Positions 4,177 through 9,358 of a DNA stretch of 14,769 bases are shown piece after piece. Where the stretch lies: assembly GCA_005397905.1 (NCBI GenBank), contig GCA_005397905.1_4318.1; one strand, 5' to 3'. The notes beneath the pieces were generated by a model. It had not been told where the DNA came from. It saw nothing but the letters and a program-made list of their open reading frames with translations, and did no database searches. Within the stretch, counting starts at the first letter, position 1, and every line of letters begins with the position of its first letter. The position numbers and the translations under genes were made by a program. The stretch is from Escherichia coli. GTDB lineage: Bacteria > Pseudomonadota > Gammaproteobacteria > Enterobacterales > Enterobacteriaceae.

Positions 4177-5313
4177 ATGGCAACTGCAAAGATTACCAAC
4201 GAACAACTTCGTGAAGAACTGGCAAATGGCATGACAAACAAAGAAATCGCAGAGAAATACGGAATGAACATTCGCAATGTTGAATTGCGTCGTAGTAAAT
4301 TGGCAAAATCCGGCGAGCTTCATGGAAACCCTGGGATTAAGAAGCTAGTTCCTGACGGCTATTTGGTCAAAGGGACTTCAACGATGATTGATGCGGAAGG
4401 TAACGAGAAGATCCGGTGGGTTAAGACCTCAATTGATAATGAGCGCCTTGAGGTTCTTATGGAGCAGGCTCGAGAAGCATTTTGCTCTGAGTTGCCAAAG
4501 GCAGTTCCATCTGAATCACCTAATGTTAACTTTGACGATAACACGCTTGCGATGTATCCGGTTTTTGATTTACACATTGGAGCAATGGCACACAAACATG
4601 AGTGCGGCGAAAACTACGACACAGCGACAGCCGAGAAGGTAATGAATGGATTCTTTGATTACGCCGTAGATAAGGCCCCAAACTCAAAGAATGCTGTATT
4701 GGTATTGGGTGGCGATTTCCTACATTACGATTCCCTGGAGGCTAAAACCCCGGCCTCAGGCCATATCTTAGACTCTGACAGTCGTTACGCTAAGATTGTT
4801 TATGTTGCAATCCGTTCAGTACGACGTGCAATTTCTCGAATGATGGAAAAGCATCAAGTCATTGATATTAAAGTAATAAGCGGAAATCACGACGAGGCTG
4901 GAATGGTTTGGCTCCGCGCTGCACTTGCTGCATTTTATGAATATGAGCCTCGCGTAAATGTTGATGTTAGCCCAGCTGCAATGATGATGACCAGCTTTGG
5001 AACGACGCTTATTGGATACACTCACGGGCACCAAATGCGGAAAGCCGATACTCGACTAACTGTTATGGCAACTGATTTTCGTAAGTTATTTGGTCAAAGT
5101 GAGTATGTTTACACACATAGTGGCCACTGGCATTCGCAGAAGATTACAGAAACAAACTTGGGAATTGATGAGGTTCATGGGCAGCTGGGAAGTCCTGATG
5201 CGTACTCCGCAAATGGCGGCTGGCGCTCTCAACGTCAAGCGGCAGTTATTGTCTACCATAAAGAATTCGGTGAAGTTGGGCGATTCATTTGTCGCCCTAA
5301 AATGTTTAGCTAA
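4177..5313 (+). CDS. N-terminal helix-turn-helix domain fused to a calcineurin-like metallophosphoesterase (Mre11/SbcD-type fold)
   Basis: 378 aa. HTH-like MTNKEIAEKYGMNIRNVELRRSKL at the N-terminus; phosphoesterase motifs in order: DLH (VFDLHIGAMAH), GDxxxxD (VLGGDFLHYD), GNHDE, THGH, GHWH. AAGGA RBS upstream. Confidence 0.8.
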   Translation: MATAKITNEQLREELANGMTNKEIAEKYGMNIRNVELRRSKLAKSGELHGNPGIKKLVPDGYLVKGTSTMIDAEGNEKIRWVKTSIDNERLEVLMEQAREAFCSELPKAVPSESPNVNFDDNTLAMYPVFDLHIGAMAHKHECGENYDTATAEKVMNGFFDYAVDKAPNSKNAVLVLGGDFLHYDSLEAKTPASGHILDSDSRYAKIVYVAIRSVRRAISRMMEKHQVIDIKVISGNHDEAGMVWLRAALAAFYEYEPRVNVDVSPAAMMMTSFGTTLIGYTHGHQMRKADTRLTVMATDFRKLFGQSEYVYTHSGHWHSQKITETNLGIDEVHGQLGSPDAYSANGGWRSQRQAAVIVYHKEFGEVGRFICRPKMFS

Positions 5314-5425: not shown

Positions 5426-5980
5426 ATGACCAAATTGTTTATACTGAATGGGCCAGCTGGGGTCGGCAAAGATACAATTGCTGACGTCATGGTTAGTTCT
5501 GGCGCTTGCTGTGAGAAGGTTTCTTTTAAGTCACCCGTGTTTGATGTGGCTAAGGGTATGTTATCAAGCGATGAATTTGATTGGTTTATTGAAAACTACA
5601 ACAATAGAGACGAGAAAGATAAACCTCAGAAAATTCTCGGAGGTAAAACTATTCGAGAGTTTATGATATGGATTAGCGAATCAGTAATGAAACCTGTTTT
5701 TGGTAATGATGTCTTCGGCAGGAGATTGGCTAGTTCACTTGGTGATGGTTGCTATATTTGTGCTGACGGTGGATTTGCTAGCGAGATTGAGCCACTGATC
5801 GACGCTGGTGTTAAGGTCACGTTAATCAGGTTGCATAGGGCAGGGTACACATTTTATGGCGATAGTCGCTCATATATTCACGGGGTGTGTGAAAGAGAGA
5901 TTGATGTTCATGTTGTTGATGGTGATATTAATGGAACATCAGCATTGGTAAGGCACGTAATAAATAGCACGAATTGCTAA
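5426..5980 (+). CDS. deoxynucleoside monophosphate kinase-like P-loop kinase
   Basis: 184 aa; Walker A LNGPAGVGKDT; the N-terminal stretch KLFILNGPAGVGKDTIADVMVS resembles the N-terminus of the T4 gene 1 dNMP kinase as I recall it. GGAGA RBS. Protein ends ...NSTNC with the stop TAA supplied by a TTGCTAA element. Confidence 0.65.
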   Translation: MTKLFILNGPAGVGKDTIADVMVSSGACCEKVSFKSPVFDVAKGMLSSDEFDWFIENYNNRDEKDKPQKILGGKTIREFMIWISESVMKPVFGNDVFGRRLASSLGDGCYICADGGFASEIEPLIDAGVKVTLIRLHRAGYTFYGDSRSYIHGVCEREIDVHVVDGDINGTSALVRHVINSTNC

Positions 5981-6046: not shown

Positions 6047-6223
6047 ATGACTAAAATGACTTACTGCACCAAGAACAACTCCAAGACACTGCCATTTACG
6101 GTTAACCAGCCTTACAATGCCGAGTATCAGGGTGACGGATACTACAAAATTTACGGCGACGATATGACGTGGATTTTAGCGCCGATTGATGGTTCGCTTG
6201 TTGAATTTATTATCGCTGACTAG
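6047..6223 (+). CDS. hypothetical small protein (58 aa)
   Basis: ATG 6047 with ACGAGGA about 7 nt upstream; MTKMTYCTKNNSKTLPFTVNQPYNAEYQGDGYYKIYGDDMTWILAPIDGSLVEFIIAD; followed by an intrinsic terminator. Below the track length cutoff. Confidence 0.5.
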   Translation: MTKMTYCTKNNSKTLPFTVNQPYNAEYQGDGYYKIYGDDMTWILAPIDGSLVEFIIAD

Positions 6224-6249
6224 CGCAGAAAAAACATAGCTTTACAAGC

Positions 6250-6276
6250 GGGGGGCCTTTTGGCTCCCCTTTTTTG
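6250..6276 (+). terminator. rho-independent terminator
   Basis: 8-bp GC-rich stem (6250-6257 / 6262-6269, one G-U pair), TTTT loop, then a 6-T tract (6270-6275). Confidence 0.7.
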
Positions 6277-6354
6277 TGCTTCTTTTACGAACAGGGCTAC
6301 TGTATCATGTTTACACTAACTTAAATATTGACAAATAGACAAATGGAGGATCAC

Positions 6355-6570
6355 ATGAGGGAAGTCATCAACGCCGCTACGGCATCAACTGGCGGTGCTG
6401 CGGTAACTGGAGCGGCAACTGGTCAGATGACTATAGCAATAATCAGCCTTATCGCTCTAATCATTTTTGGTGCCTGGGGTGCTTACTGGAAGTTTAAGGA
6501 TAGCCAGGCGATTCGTCGAGCCCTTGAATCTGGCGACCTAAAAACAGCAATCAAGATAAGGAGCAAGTAA
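6355..6570 (+). CDS. holin, probable pinholin (two TMDs)
   Basis: 71 aa from ATG 6355 (GGAGG 5 nt upstream): a weakly hydrophobic Ala/Gly-rich TMD1, a strongly hydrophobic TMD2 (ISLIALIIFGAWGAYW) and a charged C-terminal tail. An in-frame ATG at 6343 gives a possible dual-start; the track start 6328 is TTG. Sits directly upstream of a SAR endolysin. Confidence 0.6.
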   Translation: MREVINAATASTGGAAVTGAATGQMTIAIISLIALIIFGAWGAYWKFKDSQAIRRALESGDLKTAIKIRSK

Positions 6571-7056
6571 ATGAAGCAGAAGCTGGCAATCAGTGCGGCC
6601 ACGGCTGCGGCAATATACATCGCAGCGCCGCTTATTGAGCTTGTCGAGGGAGTAGAGAACAAGCCATACATGGACATTGCCGGGATACCTACAGTCTGCG
6701 CGGGTATCACTGGTCCCGACGTAGTTTGGGGCAAGACTTACAGCAACAGGGAGTGCCGGAACTTACTGGAGAAACACATTCAGATTCATGCCAAGCATGT
6801 TCAGAATGCAGTTACCTACCCAATTGCACCGCAGACAAGGGCGGCGTTAATCAGCTTTAGCTATAATGTTGGCGGTCATGCAATGAGGAATTCTACCGCT
6901 GTAAGGCTAATTAACCAGGGTAAGGTGGAGCAGGGTTGCAATGCCCTCGGGATGTGGACAAAGGCCACCGTTAATGGCAAGAAGGTTGTCGTTAAGGGGT
7001 TAGTGAATCGCAGGAATGAGGAGATTAAGTTATGCTTAAGTGGATTGCAGCGTTAG
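6571..7056 (+). CDS. SAR endolysin, T4-lysozyme-type (GH24) muramidase
   Basis: 161 aa; N-terminal signal-anchor-release-like segment LAISAATAAAIYIAAPLIELV followed by the E-x8-D-x5-T catalytic pattern of T4 lysozyme (EGVENKPYMDIAGIPT). AAGGAG RBS; start abuts the holin stop. Confidence 0.88.
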   Translation: MKQKLAISAATAAAIYIAAPLIELVEGVENKPYMDIAGIPTVCAGITGPDVVWGKTYSNRECRNLLEKHIQIHAKHVQNAVTYPIAPQTRAALISFSYNVGGHAMRNSTAVRLINQGKVEQGCNALGMWTKATVNGKKVVVKGLVNRRNEEIKLCLSGLQR

Positions 7057-7421
7057 TGGTGTGCATGGCTTTATCCGGATGCTCAGCAACAGACGCACTG
7101 ACTGGTTTGATTGGAAGTAAGCCGGAAGTTACGGCTCAGGCCGGGTCGGAGAATAACAAGGTCGGAGTTGGGTTAACTAACAAGGTTGACTCCAGTAGCT
7201 CCAGTGAAGCCACGGTTAAGGATTCTAGAGTAGGGTCTCTTGATAGCTCAAGTGGCAAAAAGACTGCCGACAATTCCATCAAGGCATCTACAATAACCGC
7301 TGAAAAGATTGAGATTACCAATAACGACTCATCCGCGCTCCCGTGGATTGGAACCGGAGCTATGGGGTTGCTGGTTCTGATTCTCTTGGCTGTAATCTTA
7401 AGACGTAAAAAAGCCTCCTAA
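7032..7421 (+). CDS. unimolecular spanin (u-spanin), outer-membrane lipoprotein with C-terminal TMD
   Basis: 129 aa; signal peptide with lipobox LSGC (MLKWIAALVVCMALSGCSA), Ser/Thr/Gly-rich middle, C-terminal TMD LPWIGTGAMGLLVLILLAVIL then RRKKAS; start overlaps the endolysin 3' end out of frame. Same architecture as T1 gp11. Confidence 0.75.
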   Translation: MLKWIAALVVCMALSGCSATDALTGLIGSKPEVTAQAGSENNKVGVGLTNKVDSSSSSEATVKDSRVGSLDSSSGKKTADNSIKASTITAEKIEITNNDSSALPWIGTGAMGLLVLILLAVILRRKKAS

Positions 7422-7438
7422 TGGAGGCTATATTTTTA
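7412..7438. terminator. bidirectional intrinsic terminator at the convergence point
   Basis: 7-bp stem AGCCTCC / GGAGGCT (7412-7418 / 7423-7429) with loop TAAT (holding the spanin stop codon); T-rich run after it on the plus strand (ATATTTTT) and a 5-6 T tract after it on the minus strand (rc of 7407-7411). Confidence 0.65.
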
Positions 7439-7771
7439 ACTAAATAACTCGTCGTCCGTCATTGTTCCTATATTCATCATCTCTTTTATGTACTTGCTTT
7501 CATACCCGTTAAGCGCCTCGAAGTTAAAACCGAATGGCCTCTTCAAACTCCCCTTGCTAACAAATTCACCGCACTTACCATCAATGTATCCCATGCTAAG
7601 CATCTTCGCGCAGAACTCCTTTGAAGCGGCGCTGCAAAACTCTCTATGCGATAAACCCGCTGCTTTGCTGAATCGCTGAGAGTCCTTATGTTGGTAGATG
7701 AATCGCGCCAAATGCTGGCGCGTAAAATAGCTATAGGATTCGCAGAATCGGTACAAGTCTAAAATAAACAT
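7436..7771 (-). CDS. hypothetical protein (111 aa)
   Basis: ATG 3 nt after the stop of the 527-aa gene (translational coupling); ends at the bidirectional terminator. Confidence 0.5.
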   Translation of the reverse strand: MFILDLYRFCESYSYFTRQHLARFIYQHKDSQRFSKAAGLSHREFCSAASKEFCAKMLSMGYIDGKCGEFVSKGSLKRPFGFNFEALNGYESKYIKEMMNIGTMTDDELFS

Positions 7772-7774
7772 TAA

Positions 7775-9358
7775 TTACCCCAGCAGTCGCGGATTAATGT
7801 AAACCTTATCACCAATCAGGCAGGTGTAGTTTTTCTCATCAAGCATCGGAAGTAAATGGTCTTTAATCTTAGCCATTACGCCAGCCTGACCCTCAAACGG
7901 CCTAACCTTGCGTGCTGATTCATATAGTGAACGAAGTCCTACAACGCCCTTACTGTTCTTTCCTTGCTTAATCAATATGTCAATTAACTTGTTCATCTCT
8001 GCATTATCGCCAGCGTGACCAGCCGAACTAGCAGCAGAAAGGTAAGTTTTACTTTGTTCGTAAAACATGATAATTGCCTCTTGCATTGTCTCTAGGTCAA
8101 TTTGCCTTGACTTCAATGGCCGCTCATTATTCTTGCATGACCAGTTTCTTATTGTATGAAGAATTGCCGCCATTCGAATAACTTGCTTATCCATCTTGCC
8201 AAGAGCGCCACGCAGCATAGAGTGAGAGTATTTACCTCCATCCGCAAGGTGCGGCTCCATATCCTGGCGTGCTAGATTAAGATATCGCATAGCTGATTCT
8301 GAAATAGATAAATTAACTTGTGTTTCGTTCATAATGTTGTGAATCATTCTAAAGTAATCAGCTTTCAATTCGCCATCAACCGGTTCGTATGTCGACTCAC
8401 CTTTTTCATTAATAAAAACGCGATTTCCAATCATGGGGCGCTCCCTAACCAGCCAGAATCGCTCAGATACACCTATACCACGAGCACCAGCCTCCATAAT
8501 TGCATTGATTGTTTCATCCTGAGCTATTACAGCTATTGCGCCAAGCGCGGTAAACATCAAGTTGTTGTCAGCATTGGCGCGAGATATTGATATATTTCCA
8601 GAATCCCACGCCTTAAGAACTAACTCACTGTTTGTTTTCTTGCTGCCATCTCCGTAGGTCATCCCAAGCAATGAGTTAATTGCCGTTGCTTCGTCTGATA
8701 TTACCGCAAAGTTACCCTGTCGACTGTTTATTCGAGCCAGACCTTCAGGTGTTGTATCAGATACCGGAAAGACAATATCACACAGCTTTTCTAACTTCTC
8801 TTCTAAATCCTCTTTCTCCTCAAACAATGACGCCATTTCGGATGGCGACTTCTCCTGCTTCATCTCTTTCGCCAGCGCTGATAGCTTGGCCATAATCTTT
8901 TTTCTTTCACGCTTTCGCTGGTCATTGATTCGCTCAACCTCGGCTACCATTGGAGCTATTGCGAGTGAGTTAATGGCTGACTTACCAGTCGATGGTGGCT
9001 GGCTGGTTACTACGTACAGTGAGGTTGGTTGCTGCGTTCCGTGATACTCAACAGTAAAACGCCCTAGCATGGCAGCGGAAATACACCCCAGGAAATGCAT
9101 GTATGCGGAAGACTCTGGGAACTGAACAGATCGAGCGATATTGGATGAGAGTTTGCCAACAACATCAATATCATTTCCGAGTGAGATTACGGGATACTTG
9201 TCATTTGCAGCATCAATCTCCACTGGTGCTTTCCAGAATGATTGAGACTGGCGATAGCCATTTGCATTAATGGCGACTCGCAGTGGTGGGAGGTTGTCTG
9301 CGGCAGCAATTGCCATAACCTGTTCAACAGATAGTTTATCTTCGTTGAAATCAAACAT
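7775..9358 (-). CDS. P-loop NTPase of unknown function (527 aa), RecA/DnaB-like Walker A
   Basis: Walker A-like VVTSQPPSTGKSAI (about residues 115-128), Walker B-like FAVISDE (about 217-223), a highly charged predicted helix between them; GGAGAG RBS. N-terminal 43 aa and C-terminal 55 aa are homologous to the 181-aa ORF at 12482-13027. Confidence 0.8.
   Translation of the reverse strand: MFDFNEDKLSVEQVMAIAAADNLPPLRVAINANGYRQSQSFWKAPVEIDAANDKYPVISLGNDIDVVGKLSSNIARSVQFPESSAYMHFLGCISAAMLGRFTVEYHGTQQPTSLYVVTSQPPSTGKSAINSLAIAPMVAEVERINDQRKRERKKIMAKLSALAKEMKQEKSPSEMASLFEEKEDLEEKLEKLCDIVFPVSDTTPEGLARINSRQGNFAVISDEATAINSLLGMTYGDGSKKTNSELVLKAWDSGNISISRANADNNLMFTALGAIAVIAQDETINAIMEAGARGIGVSERFWLVRERPMIGNRVFINEKGESTYEPVDGELKADYFRMIHNIMNETQVNLSISESAMRYLNLARQDMEPHLADGGKYSHSMLRGALGKMDKQVIRMAAILHTIRNWSCKNNERPLKSRQIDLETMQEAIIMFYEQSKTYLSAASSAGHAGDNAEMNKLIDILIKQGKNSKGVVGLRSLYESARKVRPFEGQAGVMAKIKDHLLPMLDEKNYTCLIGDKVYINPRLLG
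9233..9262. repeat. 30-nt perfect inverted repeat, copy A (inside the NTPase gene)
   Basis: rc of 9233-9262 = AATGGCTATCGCCAGTCTCAATCATTCTGG, identical to 12584-12613, while flanking synonymous sites have diverged. Confidence 0.9.

What the first reader, a model, noticed from the sequence alone, without database searches (positions are those of the whole stretch)
6355..7421. Complete T1-type lysis cassette: pinholin, SAR endolysin, unimolecular spanin
Three adjacent or overlapping genes: a 71-aa two-TMD holin with a possible dual start (ATG 6343 and 6355), a lysozyme with a SAR domain and the E-x8-D-x5-T catalytic pattern, and a protein with both a lipobox (LSGC) and a C-terminal TMD. The last is the rare u-spanin architecture known from T1 gp11, used instead of the usual two-component spanin. 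No TAGCAC element or obvious sigma70 promoter lies in 6277-6354 after the terminator, so lysis is probably under separate late control.
Basis: partly seen in the sequence, partly recalled or inferred. Interest (0 to 1): 0.5.

Follow-up and report, generated by a model that had tools for sequence, protein, structure and literature searches.

The report
Ordinary T1-type phage lysis cassette
This is the standard three-gene cell-bursting module (holin, membrane-tethered lysozyme, single-protein spanin) of a T1/Rtp-like coliphage, and it is already annotated and described in close relatives, so it is real but ordinary.

Summary
The three genes are there as described: holin 6355-6570 (71 aa), lysozyme 6571-7056 (161 aa) and lipoprotein with a C-terminal membrane anchor 7032-7421 (129 aa). 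The window comes from a Drexlerviridae/Braunvirinae coliphage. This region is 86-89% identical in DNA to Rtp, SU57 and Veterinaerplatzvirus, where the same genes are annotated holin / endolysin / u-spanin.

- **Holin:** 100% identical in protein to SU57 and 58% to T1 gp13.
- **Lysozyme:** its E26-D35-T41 triad aligns with the phage 21 SAR endolysin (PDB 3HDE), and its N-terminal segment matches that enzyme's SAR domain in hydrophobicity.
- **Spanin:** 91% identical to Rtp's, which the published spanin database lists in the T1 gp11 family.

The core reading is supported, but three details are overstated.

- **Dual start:** not supported. ATG 6343 lies inside the ribosome-binding site and is absent from most relatives.
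- **Two-TMD holin:** unproven. There is one strong membrane segment plus a weakly hydrophobic N-terminal stretch and no loop between them.
- **Rarity:** this u-spanin family occurs in about 1,150 phage records.

A conserved weak promoter-like site (TTCTTT-17-TATCAT, 6280-6308) follows the terminator. A DUF7244/SH3 gene lies just upstream and was recently proposed as a lysis accessory.

Verdict: already known, low interest.

The parts
6250..6275 (+). Intrinsic terminator that closes the upstream transcription unit: GGGGGGCC-TTTT-GGCTCCCC followed by a T-run
   Evidence: One search reports 8 pairs, 7 of them G-C. A hairpin plus T-run sits at the same place in all 9 aligned genomes. T1 and IsaakIselin have different stem sequences there.
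6280..6308 (+). Candidate weak sigma-70-type promoter for the lysis genes (TTCTTT, 17 nt, TATCAT). This is inferred, not shown.
   Evidence: It is below the 9-of-12 threshold. A TAnnAT hexamer 16-17 nt after a TTC-type hexamer recurs just after the terminator in Braunvirinae, IsaakIselin, T1, Skenny and pSf-1. The SU57 record annotates a BPROM promoter at the homologous place.
6345..6349 (+). Ribosome-binding site GGAGG, 5 nt before ATG 6355. It overlaps the non-conserved ATG 6343.
   Evidence: Relatives carry GGTGG or GGAGG here with or without the upstream ATG.
6355..6570 (+). Holin, 71 aa, T1 gp13 family. It is a putative pinholin with an uncharged Ala/Gly/Thr-rich N-segment (4-23), a strong TMD (25-45) and a basic cytoplasmic tail.
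   Evidence: PHROG 2877 at 3e-37. 100% identical to the SU57, AugustePiccard, PH1062 and T145P1 holins and 58% to T1 gp13. Hydrophobicity.
6571..7056 (+). SAR endolysin, 161 aa, GH24 / T4-lysozyme-like muramidase of the phage 21 R type. It has K2 and K4, a SAR-like segment L5-I22, and the triad E26/D35/T41.
   Evidence: PF00959 at 3e-35. PDB 3hde/3hdf (R21) and 4zpu (RrrD) at E = 1e-28. Its SAR segment has hydrophobicity equal to R21's.
7032..7421 (+). Unimolecular spanin, 129 aa, T1 gp11 family. It has the lipobox LSGC (Cys17, Ser18), a Cys-free Ser/Thr-rich periplasmic domain and a C-terminal TMD at about 103-123.
   Evidence: PHROG 1804 at 2e-48. 95% identical to the SU57 'unimolecular spanin', 91% to Rtp and 39-42% to T1 gp11. 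RTP is listed in the T1 family at 129 aa in SpaninDB.
7412..7429 (.). Bidirectional intrinsic terminator between the convergent spanin gene and the minus-strand gene 7436-7771. The spanin stop codon lies in its loop.
   Evidence: One search finds it on both strands. It is invariant in 6 Braunvirinae genomes, including AugustePiccard, whose spanin C-terminus differs.
6047..6223 (+). 58-aa DUF7244 (SH3-clan) protein, a neighbour recently proposed as an accessory of the lysis module. It is not shown to belong to it.
   Evidence: PF23896 at 6e-29. The proposal is in PMC13164509. The gene lies upstream of the terminator and the protein has no signal sequence.

Best explanation
This is the lysis module of a T1/Rtp-like (Drexlerviridae, Braunvirinae) coliphage, and it works in three steps.

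1. The 71-aa holin accumulates in the inner membrane with its basic C-terminus in the cytoplasm. At a set time it triggers, makes small holes and collapses the membrane potential.
2. The lysozyme has meanwhile been exported by Sec. It is held inactive on the periplasmic face by its weakly hydrophobic N-terminal signal-anchor-release (SAR) segment. When the membrane is depolarised the segment leaves the bilayer. The enzyme then refolds, so that Glu26, Asp35 and Thr41 form the active site, and it degrades the murein.
3. The 129-aa spanin is lipid-anchored in the outer membrane through Cys17 and anchored in the inner membrane by its C-terminal helix. The cell wall restrains it. Once the wall is gone it brings the two membranes together and destroys the outer membrane.

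What is shown here: the gene order, the sequence motifs, and homology to the tested proteins T1 gp11 and phage 21 R. What is inferred by analogy: pinhole formation, SAR release, lipoylation and membrane fusion.
For: - **Genes and motifs.** ORFs and motifs were read directly from the sequence.
- **Family matches.** Pfam and PHROG hits are.
- **Close relatives.** The region is 86-89% identical in DNA to Braunvirinae phages annotated holin / endolysin / u-spanin.
- **Protein identities.** To SU57: 100%, 94% and 95%. To T1 gp13, gp12 and gp11: 58%, 44% and 39%.
- **Lysozyme.** It aligns with R21 (PDB 3hde) with the catalytic triad in register. Its SAR segment has a Kyte-Doolittle mean of 1.98 and 56% small residues. 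R21's values are 1.98 and 65%.
- **Holin.** The N-segment is at least as hydrophobic as the proven SAR-type TMD1 of the phage 21 pinholin (0.84 against 0.33). It stays uncharged in 13 of 14 family members.
- **Spanin.** RTP is listed in the T1 gp11 family. Members of that family sit in pinholin plus SAR-endolysin cassettes, and gp11 complements lambda RzRz1 (PMC6139136). There is no periplasmic Cys, as in all 58 published u-spanins.
Against: - No experiment exists for this phage, and nothing I found tests the T1-type holin directly.
- The holin shows no sequence similarity to the phage 21 pinholin (BLASTP E = 3.1).
- Only one holin segment is strongly hydrophobic, and there is no loop between the two putative TMDs. 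TMHMM finds one TMD in this family according to the Skenny record. AlphaFold2 gives no hairpin and is of low confidence at the N-terminus.
- AlphaFold2 did not recover the beta-rich periplasmic domain expected for the spanin. pLDDT was below 50 with a shallow alignment.
Confidence: 0.88

Rival explanations
1. The holin is a single-pass protein (N-terminus out, C-terminus in) from the start. In this reading its conserved Ala/Gly/Thr-rich N-segment is a periplasmic or interfacial regulatory tail, not a first transmembrane helix. It would then be a holin topology class of its own, whatever the size of its holes.
For: - Only residues 25-45 are strongly hydrophobic. The simple Hessa sum is -0.6 for that segment against +7.5 for residues 4-23.
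- The stretch 4-45 has no charge and no loop, and only Q24 (E in two family members) separates the two parts.
- The Center for Phage Technology annotation of the Skenny homologue says 'one transmembrane domain by TMHMM'.
- AlphaFold2 shows one long helix (15-58) running through the junction.
- The short N-tail has net charge zero while the C-tail is strongly basic, which fits N-out by the positive-inside rule.
Against: - The proven TMD1 of the phage 21 pinholin is even less hydrophobic on the same scales.
- The N-segment is kept uncharged in 13 of 14 members, as expected for a segment that sits in or crosses the bilayer.
- The TLS paper predicts two TMDs.
- The end state of a phage 21-type pinholin is the same N-out form, so the two models differ only in the starting state.
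Confidence: 0.3
2. The lysis module has four parts. In this reading the 58-aa DUF7244/SH3 protein encoded at 6047-6223 is a cell-wall-binding accessory of the endolysin, so the cassette called 'complete' is missing a member.
For: - DUF7244 matches at 6e-29.
- PMC13164509 reports that the gene, when present (188 of 522 Drexlerviridae), always lies next to the lysis genes, and proposes an auxiliary role.
- The gene is conserved in T1, Rtp and all Braunvirinae examined.
Against: - A strong, conserved terminator separates it from the holin gene.
- The protein has no signal sequence or TMD, so with a pinholin it could not reach the murein before the cell bursts.
- It is absent from about two thirds of the family, which lyse without it.
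- There is no experimental support.
Confidence: 0.12
3. The holin gene has a dual-start motif. ATG 6343 would give a 75-aa antiholin and ATG 6355 the 71-aa holin, as in lambda S or phage 21 S.
For: Two in-frame ATGs lie 12 nt apart. The TLS paper suggests a dual start for a relative, though at a different, internal position.
Against: - ATG 6343 is part of AAATGGAGG and so overlaps the ribosome-binding site of ATG 6355. It has no ribosome-binding site of its own.
- It is present only in the window, SU57 and T145P1. It is absent from Rtp, AugustePiccard, JeanPiccard (a 1-nt deletion that also breaks the frame), PH1062, IsaakIselin and T1.
- Upstream extensions called in database homologues are unrelated to each other.
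- The extension MEDH adds two acidic residues. Known antiholins carry an extra basic residue: phage 21's begins MKSM, and lambda S107 has Lys2 (my own knowledge).
- No conserved RNA structure is present in the leader.
Confidence: 0.04
4. The N-terminus of the lysozyme is an ordinary cleavable Sec signal peptide. The enzyme would then be a soluble periplasmic enzyme controlled in some other way.
For: The N-terminus has the n-region (K2, K4) and Ala-rich h-region typical of signal peptides.
Against: - The only Ala-X-Ala-like position at the end of the h-region (I17-A18-A19) is followed by Pro20. By established knowledge, Pro at +1 blocks signal peptidase I.
- The catalytic Glu26 lies 4 residues after the segment, as in R21.
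- The protein aligns from residue 10 with full-length R21, whose SAR domain is retained and refolds into the enzyme.
- A freely soluble active muramidase in the periplasm would lyse the host prematurely.
Confidence: 0.04

Closest known systems
Lysis genes of Braunvirinae phages: Rtp rtp63-65, vB_EcoD_SU57 genes 67-69, BASEL phages JeanPiccard and AugustePiccard
   Same: The gene order, lengths (71/161/129 aa), the 25-nt endolysin-spanin overlap and the flanking terminators are all the same. The holin is 99-100% identical, the endolysin 89-94%, and the spanin 77-95%.
   Different: DNA identity is only 86-89%, and the whole 14.8-kb window is about 85% identical over 65-76% of its length, so this is another species. 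The window has a dNMP kinase but lacks the polynucleotide kinase that SU57 carries upstream.
Coliphage T1 gp13 / gp12 / gp11, the prototype cassette. gp11 is the tested prototype u-spanin.
   Same: All three proteins are homologous, in the same order, with the same LSGC lipobox and the same E-x8-D-x5-T triad. The DUF7244 gene and a terminator lie upstream.
   Different: Identity is 58%, 44% and 39%. In T1 the endolysin and spanin genes overlap by 1 nt rather than 25. The C-terminal TMD sequence is unrelated. T1 carries a homing endonuclease upstream.
Phage 21 S21-68 / R21 / Rz-Rz1, the experimentally defined pinholin plus SAR-endolysin paradigm
   Same: The endolysin is a true homologue (E = 5e-28 to PDB 3hde) with the triad in register and an equally weak SAR segment. 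The holin has similar size, a similar small-residue-rich N-segment and a similar basic tail.
   Different: The holin is unrelated in sequence, has no inter-TMD loop and has no conserved dual start. The spanin is one protein instead of the nested Rz/Rz1 pair. There is no Q-dependent late promoter or tRNA genes upstream.
T1 gp11-family u-spanins of Autographiviridae (Klebsiella Drulisvirus such as K15PH90, Pectobacterium Phimunavirus such as Gaspode)
   Same: The u-spanin family is the same at 34-52% identity. The conserved motifs are G-C-S at the lipobox, K-P-[DE]-x-[ST]-A-Q-x-G-[AS]-E-N, and a C-terminal TMD. They are also paired with a SAR-type endolysin.
   Different: The gene order is spanin-holin-endolysin, and the holin is unrelated and longer.

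Membership tests
u-spanin, T1 gp11 family (Kongari et al. 2018) | N-terminal lipoprotein signal with a lipobox and an invariant Cys | tested here: met
   The sequence is MLKWIAALVVCMALSGC, with LSGC at 14-17, the same lipobox as gp11. G16, C17 and S18 are invariant in 11 homologues.
u-spanin, T1 gp11 family (Kongari et al. 2018) | Outer-membrane sorting (no Asp at +2 after the lipid-modified Cys) | tested here: met
   Ser18 and Ala19 follow Cys17. The sorting rule itself is established knowledge.
u-spanin, T1 gp11 family (Kongari et al. 2018) | C-terminal transmembrane domain followed by basic residues | tested here: met
   Residues 103-123 have a Kyte-Doolittle mean of 2.36 and are followed by RRKK. 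AlphaFold2 gives helix 104-128, the only confident part of the model.
u-spanin, T1 gp11 family (Kongari et al. 2018) | At least 40% identity over at least 40% of the length to a family member | tested here: met
   91% to RTP, a listed member at 129 aa. tblastn gives 41.8% over 74% of the length to T1 gp11, and a global alignment gives 39%.
u-spanin, T1 gp11 family (Kongari et al. 2018) | No cysteine in the periplasmic domain | tested here: met
   No Cys occurs between residues 18 and 129. This is stated for all 58 u-spanins.
u-spanin, T1 gp11 family (Kongari et al. 2018) | Periplasmic domain mainly beta-strand, not coiled-coil | tested here: inconclusive
   The AlphaFold2 monomer model with 11 sequences shows no secondary structure in residues 15-103, with pLDDT below 50. 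No helices or coiled coil are predicted. The SpaninDB table gives RTP 30% beta and 6% alpha.
u-spanin, T1 gp11 family (Kongari et al. 2018) | Complements a lambda RzRz1 lysis defect; lipoylated and present in both membranes | not testable with these tools
   This is shown only for T1 gp11 (the J Virol 2018 paper is not held).
SAR endolysin, phage 21 R type | GH24 / T4-lysozyme-like catalytic domain with the E-x8-D/C-x5-T triad | tested here: met
   PF00959 at 3e-35. E26, D35 and T41 align with R21 E35, D44 and T50.
SAR endolysin, phage 21 R type | N-terminal weakly hydrophobic segment rich in Ala/Gly/Ser/Thr, after a basic n-region, and uncleaved | tested here: met
   After K2 and K4, L5-I22 has 56% small residues, a Kyte-Doolittle mean of 1.98 and a Hessa sum of +1.65. 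R21's values are 65%, 1.98 and +1.52. Pro20 sits at the only plausible cleavage site.
SAR endolysin, phage 21 R type | No Cys in the SAR segment (this separates the R21 type from the P1 Lyz disulfide-caged type) | tested here: met
   The first Cys is C43, after the triad, and aligns with the VC of R21. The classification itself is from my knowledge of Kuty et al. 2010.
SAR endolysin, phage 21 R type | Sec-dependent export, membrane tethering and release on loss of membrane potential | not testable with these tools
   This needs fractionation and energy-poison experiments.
Pinholin (functional class; prototype phage 21 S21-68) | Encoded next to, and working with, a SAR endolysin | tested here: met
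   The holin stop codon abuts the endolysin ATG.
Pinholin (functional class; prototype phage 21 S21-68) | Two TMDs (N-in, C-in), the first being SAR-like and able to leave the membrane | tested here: inconclusive
   The N-segment 4-23 is uncharged, 80% small residues, and more hydrophobic than S21 TMD1. It is conserved as uncharged. Against this, there is no loop, TMHMM finds one TMD in a homologue, and AlphaFold2 gives no hairpin.
Pinholin (functional class; prototype phage 21 S21-68) | Sequence homology to S21 | tested here: not met
   BLASTP gives E = 3.1. It is a separate, narrow family: PHROG 2877, with about 8 clusters at 50% identity among 1.84 billion proteins. So it is a pinholin by function at most, not a member of the S21 family.
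Pinholin (functional class; prototype phage 21 S21-68) | Dual-start antiholin | tested here: not met
   ATG 6343 is not conserved and lies within the ribosome-binding site.
Pinholin (functional class; prototype phage 21 S21-68) | Forms small (about 2 nm) holes that depolarise the membrane but do not pass proteins | not testable with these tools
   This needs a test of whether it can release a cytoplasmic endolysin.

The most novel reading that the evidence does not exclude
The T1-type holin may not be a phage 21-like two-helix pinholin. It could be a distinct single-pass (N-out, C-in) class. In that reading the strictly uncharged, highly conserved Gly/Ala/Thr N-segment (AATxSTGGAxxxGAATGQ) would act from the periplasmic side or the interface to time triggering. 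The adjacent cytoplasmic DUF7244/SH3 protein could be a fourth, so far untested, player. The evidence here cannot distinguish this from the standard model.
Probability: 0.2. Interest if true: 0.35.

Novelty: already known. Interest (0 to 1): 0.12.

Why it matters
It matters little beyond correct annotation. The cassette confirms that the window comes from a Braunvirinae (Rtp-like) coliphage and gives secure names and start sites for three genes.

- **Annotation:** the spanin must start at 7032. The internal Met used in the RefSeq Rtp record loses the lipoprotein signal.
- **Open question:** nothing I found tests the membrane topology or hole size of the T1-type holin, and published predictions disagree.
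- **Minor leads:** the conserved terminator plus weak-promoter arrangement, and the neighbouring SH3-like gene, bear on how T1-like phages time lysis.

Tried and rejected
- **Dual-start holin.** Rejected after aligning nine genomes and looking at over-extended database calls.
- **Regulatory RNA structure in the holin leader, like the lambda sdi.** No conserved fold was found. The single-sequence z-score is -0.13, and the alignment gives only a 4-pair helix inside the coding region.
- **TAGCAC as a promoter element.** It occurs 12 times against 6.2 expected in the window (5 of 200 shuffles reach 12), with none near the cassette. It was not pursued.
- **Conserved leader motifs as a repeated phage promoter.** ACTNACTT occurs 3 times against 1.5 expected. 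The longer TGTATCAT-N6-ACTAACTT occurs only here. It is therefore not a repeated element within this window.
- **TTGACA at 6328-6333 as a -35 box.** It is conserved, but the hexamer 17 nt downstream (TCACAT, overlapping the start codon) lacks the essential A at position 2. A transcript from it would also miss the ribosome-binding site.
- **AlphaFold2 for holin topology and the spanin fold.** Both models were of low confidence (mean pLDDT 70 and 54) and settle nothing.
- **Word-indexed protein search for distant holin homologues.** It returned only 9 near relatives. The full profile search added a few clusters and showed that the family is narrow.
- **Embedded o-spanin-like ORF inside the lysozyme or spanin genes.** None has a lipobox.
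- **The J Virol 2018 paper on gp11 localisation.** It is not held.
- **Search for T1-like transcriptomes.** Nothing relevant was found.
Full report
**What is in the sequence.** Three plus-strand ORFs lie at the stated place.
- 6355-6570 encodes 71 aa. GGAGG lies 5 nt before its ATG.
- 6571-7056 encodes 161 aa. Its ATG directly follows the TAA of the first gene.
- 7032-7421 encodes 129 aa, overlaps the second gene by 25 nt, and has GAGGAG upstream.

A strong intrinsic terminator (6250-6275) lies upstream. A bidirectional terminator (7412-7429) contains the last stop codon in its loop and separates the cassette from convergent minus-strand genes. The downstream terminator is invariant in six related genomes.

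**Where the window comes from.** The 1.3-kb region matches 99 phage records, and 87 of them cover at least 80% of it. The best matches are Braunvirinae (Drexlerviridae) coliphages: Veterinaerplatzvirus T145P1 at 89%, SU57 at 88% and Rtp at 86.5%. The whole window is about 85% identical over 65-76% of its length to the same phages. It is therefore another species of a known group. In SU57, JeanPiccard and AugustePiccard the three genes are annotated holin, endolysin and u-spanin.

**Family assignments.**
- PHROGs: holin 3e-37, endolysin 1e-48, Rz-like spanin 2e-48.
- Pfam: Phage_lysozyme 3e-35. The local copy has no family for the other two.
- Identity to SU57: 100%, 94% and 95%.
- Identity to T1 gp13, gp12 and gp11: 58%, 44% and 39%.

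**Endolysin.** The best solved relatives are E. coli RrrD (4zpu) and the phage 21 lysozyme (3hde full length, 3hdf active form), at E about 1e-28.
- In that alignment E26, D35 and T41 fall on R21 E35, D44 and T50, so the E-x8-D-x5-T reading is correct.
- The N-terminus has K2 and K4 followed by L5-I22, which is 56% Ala/Gly/Ser/Thr.
- I retrieved phage 21 itself to calibrate the scales. The window's segment has a Kyte-Doolittle mean of 1.98 and a simple Hessa sum of +1.65. The proven R21 SAR domain gives 1.98 and +1.52.
- There is no Cys before C43, so it is the R21 type rather than the disulfide-caged P1 Lyz type. That classification is from my own knowledge.
- Pro20 follows the only plausible signal-peptidase site.
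- SAR behaviour itself is inferred.

**Spanin.**
- The lipobox LSGC (Cys17) is followed by Ser18.
- The periplasmic domain is Cys-free and rich in Ser and Thr.
- A strong C-terminal TMD at 103-123 is followed by RRKK.
- Kongari et al. 2018 (PMC6139136) list RTP in the T1 gp11 family at 129 aa. They report that gp11 complements lambda RzRz1, that no u-spanin has a periplasmic Cys, and that members of this family sit in pinholin plus SAR-endolysin cassettes.
- tblastn finds this family in 1,149 phage records. These include Klebsiella and Pectobacterium podophages, where the order is spanin-holin-endolysin with an unrelated holin. The architecture is a minority type, 58 of 677 genomes in 2018, but this family is not rare.
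- AlphaFold2 gave confident helices only for the signal peptide and the TMD, and nothing for the periplasmic part. The expected beta-rich fold is untested here.

**Holin.**
- Residues 25-45 form the only strongly hydrophobic segment.
- Residues 4-23 (VINAATASTGGAAVTGAATG) are uncharged and 80% small residues, with a Kyte-Doolittle mean of 0.84.
- That is more hydrophobic than the experimentally established SAR-type TMD1 of the phage 21 pinholin (0.33). The segment stays uncharged in 13 of 14 family members. A two-helix, phage 21-like topology is therefore plausible.
- However, there is no loop. Only Q24 (Glu in two members) separates the two parts.
- The Skenny record notes one TMD by TMHMM, while the TLS paper states two. 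AlphaFold2 shows no hairpin.
- The protein has no similarity to S21.
- The family is narrow: about eight clusters at 50% identity among 1.84 billion proteins.
- "Pinholin" is thus a reasonable functional label that rests on the SAR partner and on composition, not on a test.

**Dual start.** ATG 6343 is real and in frame, but the case for it is weak.
- It lies within AAATGGAGG, the ribosome-binding site of ATG 6355, and has no site of its own.
- It occurs only in the window, SU57 and T145P1. Rtp, AugustePiccard and JeanPiccard have AAA-GGTGG, a deletion that also breaks the frame. PH1062, IsaakIselin and T1 lack it.
- Over-extended database calls have unrelated N-terminal extensions.
- The added MEDH is acidic, unlike the basic extension of the phage 21 antiholin (MKSM).
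- I consider the dual start not supported.

**Transcription.**
- However, a hairpin plus T-run occupies the same place in nine genomes, and T1 and IsaakIselin have different stem sequences there.
- Immediately after it comes a weak pair of hexamers. The window and most Braunvirinae have TTCTTT-17-TATCAT, AugustePiccard has TATGAT, and Skenny has TTCTTA-17-TATCAT. T1 has TTGTGT-17-TAAAAT, IsaakIselin TTCGCT-16-TAACAT and pSf-1 TTCCTT-17-TAGGAT.
- The A at position 2 and the T at position 6 of the second hexamer are always kept.
- SU57's authors annotated a BPROM promoter at the same position.
- I infer a weak host-type promoter at 6280-6308 with a start near 6315. Whether it is late, activator-dependent or supplemented by terminator readthrough cannot be told from sequence.
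- The leader has no conserved fold.

**Neighbour.** The 58-aa gene at 6047-6223 is DUF7244 (6e-29). A 2026 paper (PMC13164509) identifies this SH3-clan protein next to the lysis genes in 188 of 522 Drexlerviridae and proposes an accessory lysis role. Here the conserved terminator cuts it off from the holin gene, and it lacks any export signal. With a pinholin it could not reach the wall before lysis. I therefore treat it as a neighbour, not a proven part.

**Verdict.** The cassette is already known and annotated in close relatives, and it is of low interest.

Noticed in passing
window 6047-6223 (+): 58-aa DUF7244 / SH3-clan protein directly upstream of the lysis genes. A 2026 paper proposes it as an accessory of the Drexlerviridae lysis module. 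Here it has no signal sequence and is separated from the holin by a strong conserved terminator.
   Followed up: partly
window 5426-5980 (+) together with 6047-6223: A dNMP-kinase-like gene (PHROG 139) and the DUF7244 gene occur together between the preceding 378-aa ORF (4177-5313; no Pfam match) and the holin. The KanT1 paper reports kinase plus SH3 together in only seven instances among the 522 Drexlerviridae it analysed. The polynucleotide kinase present in SU57 is absent here.
   Followed up: partly
L004 (Rtp, NC_007603) 1332-1721 against annotated 1359-1721: The RefSeq start of rtp65 is an internal Met (MCVALSGC..., 121 aa), which removes most of the lipoprotein signal peptide. The upstream ATG gives the 129-aa protein listed in SpaninDB and matches window 7032.
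   Followed up: yes
window 6328-6333 and 6315-6322 (holin leader): A perfect TTGACA and the octamer ACTAACTT are conserved in the leader across Braunvirinae. TTGACA is also in IsaakIselin, TTGACT in pSf-1, and ACTCACTT in T1. No matching -10 box follows, the motifs do not recur in the window and no RNA fold is conserved. Their function is unexplained.
   Followed up: partly
window 6235-6244, just 5' of the terminator hairpin: CAT-N4-TTA is invariant in all nine aligned genomes, including T1, although the terminator stems themselves differ. In Klebsiella phage Skenny an exact 13-nt repeat TATCATCACCTTA flanks the equivalent terminator (L010 356-368 and 426-438).
   Followed up: no
L009 (Klebsiella phage K15PH90) 1201-2442; L012 (Pectobacterium phage Gaspode) 1102-2339: T1 gp11-family u-spanins occur in Autographiviridae in the order spanin-holin-endolysin. 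Their holin is unrelated and their SAR-type endolysin is longer, so the spanin moves independently of the T1-type holin.
   Followed up: partly
window 7412-7429: The spanin's last codons and stop codon are built into a bidirectional terminator (AGCCTCC-TAAT-GGAGGCT). It is invariant even in AugustePiccard, whose spanin C-terminal TMD has a different sequence. SU57 has TGA instead of TAA in the loop.
   Followed up: yes
window 7775-9358 (-) and 7436-7771 (-): The convergent minus-strand genes are a 527-aa DUF3987 protein (Pfam 4.5e-41, annotated helicase in relatives) and a 111-aa protein of unknown function (PHROG 2794, the T1 gp10 homologue).
   Followed up: no
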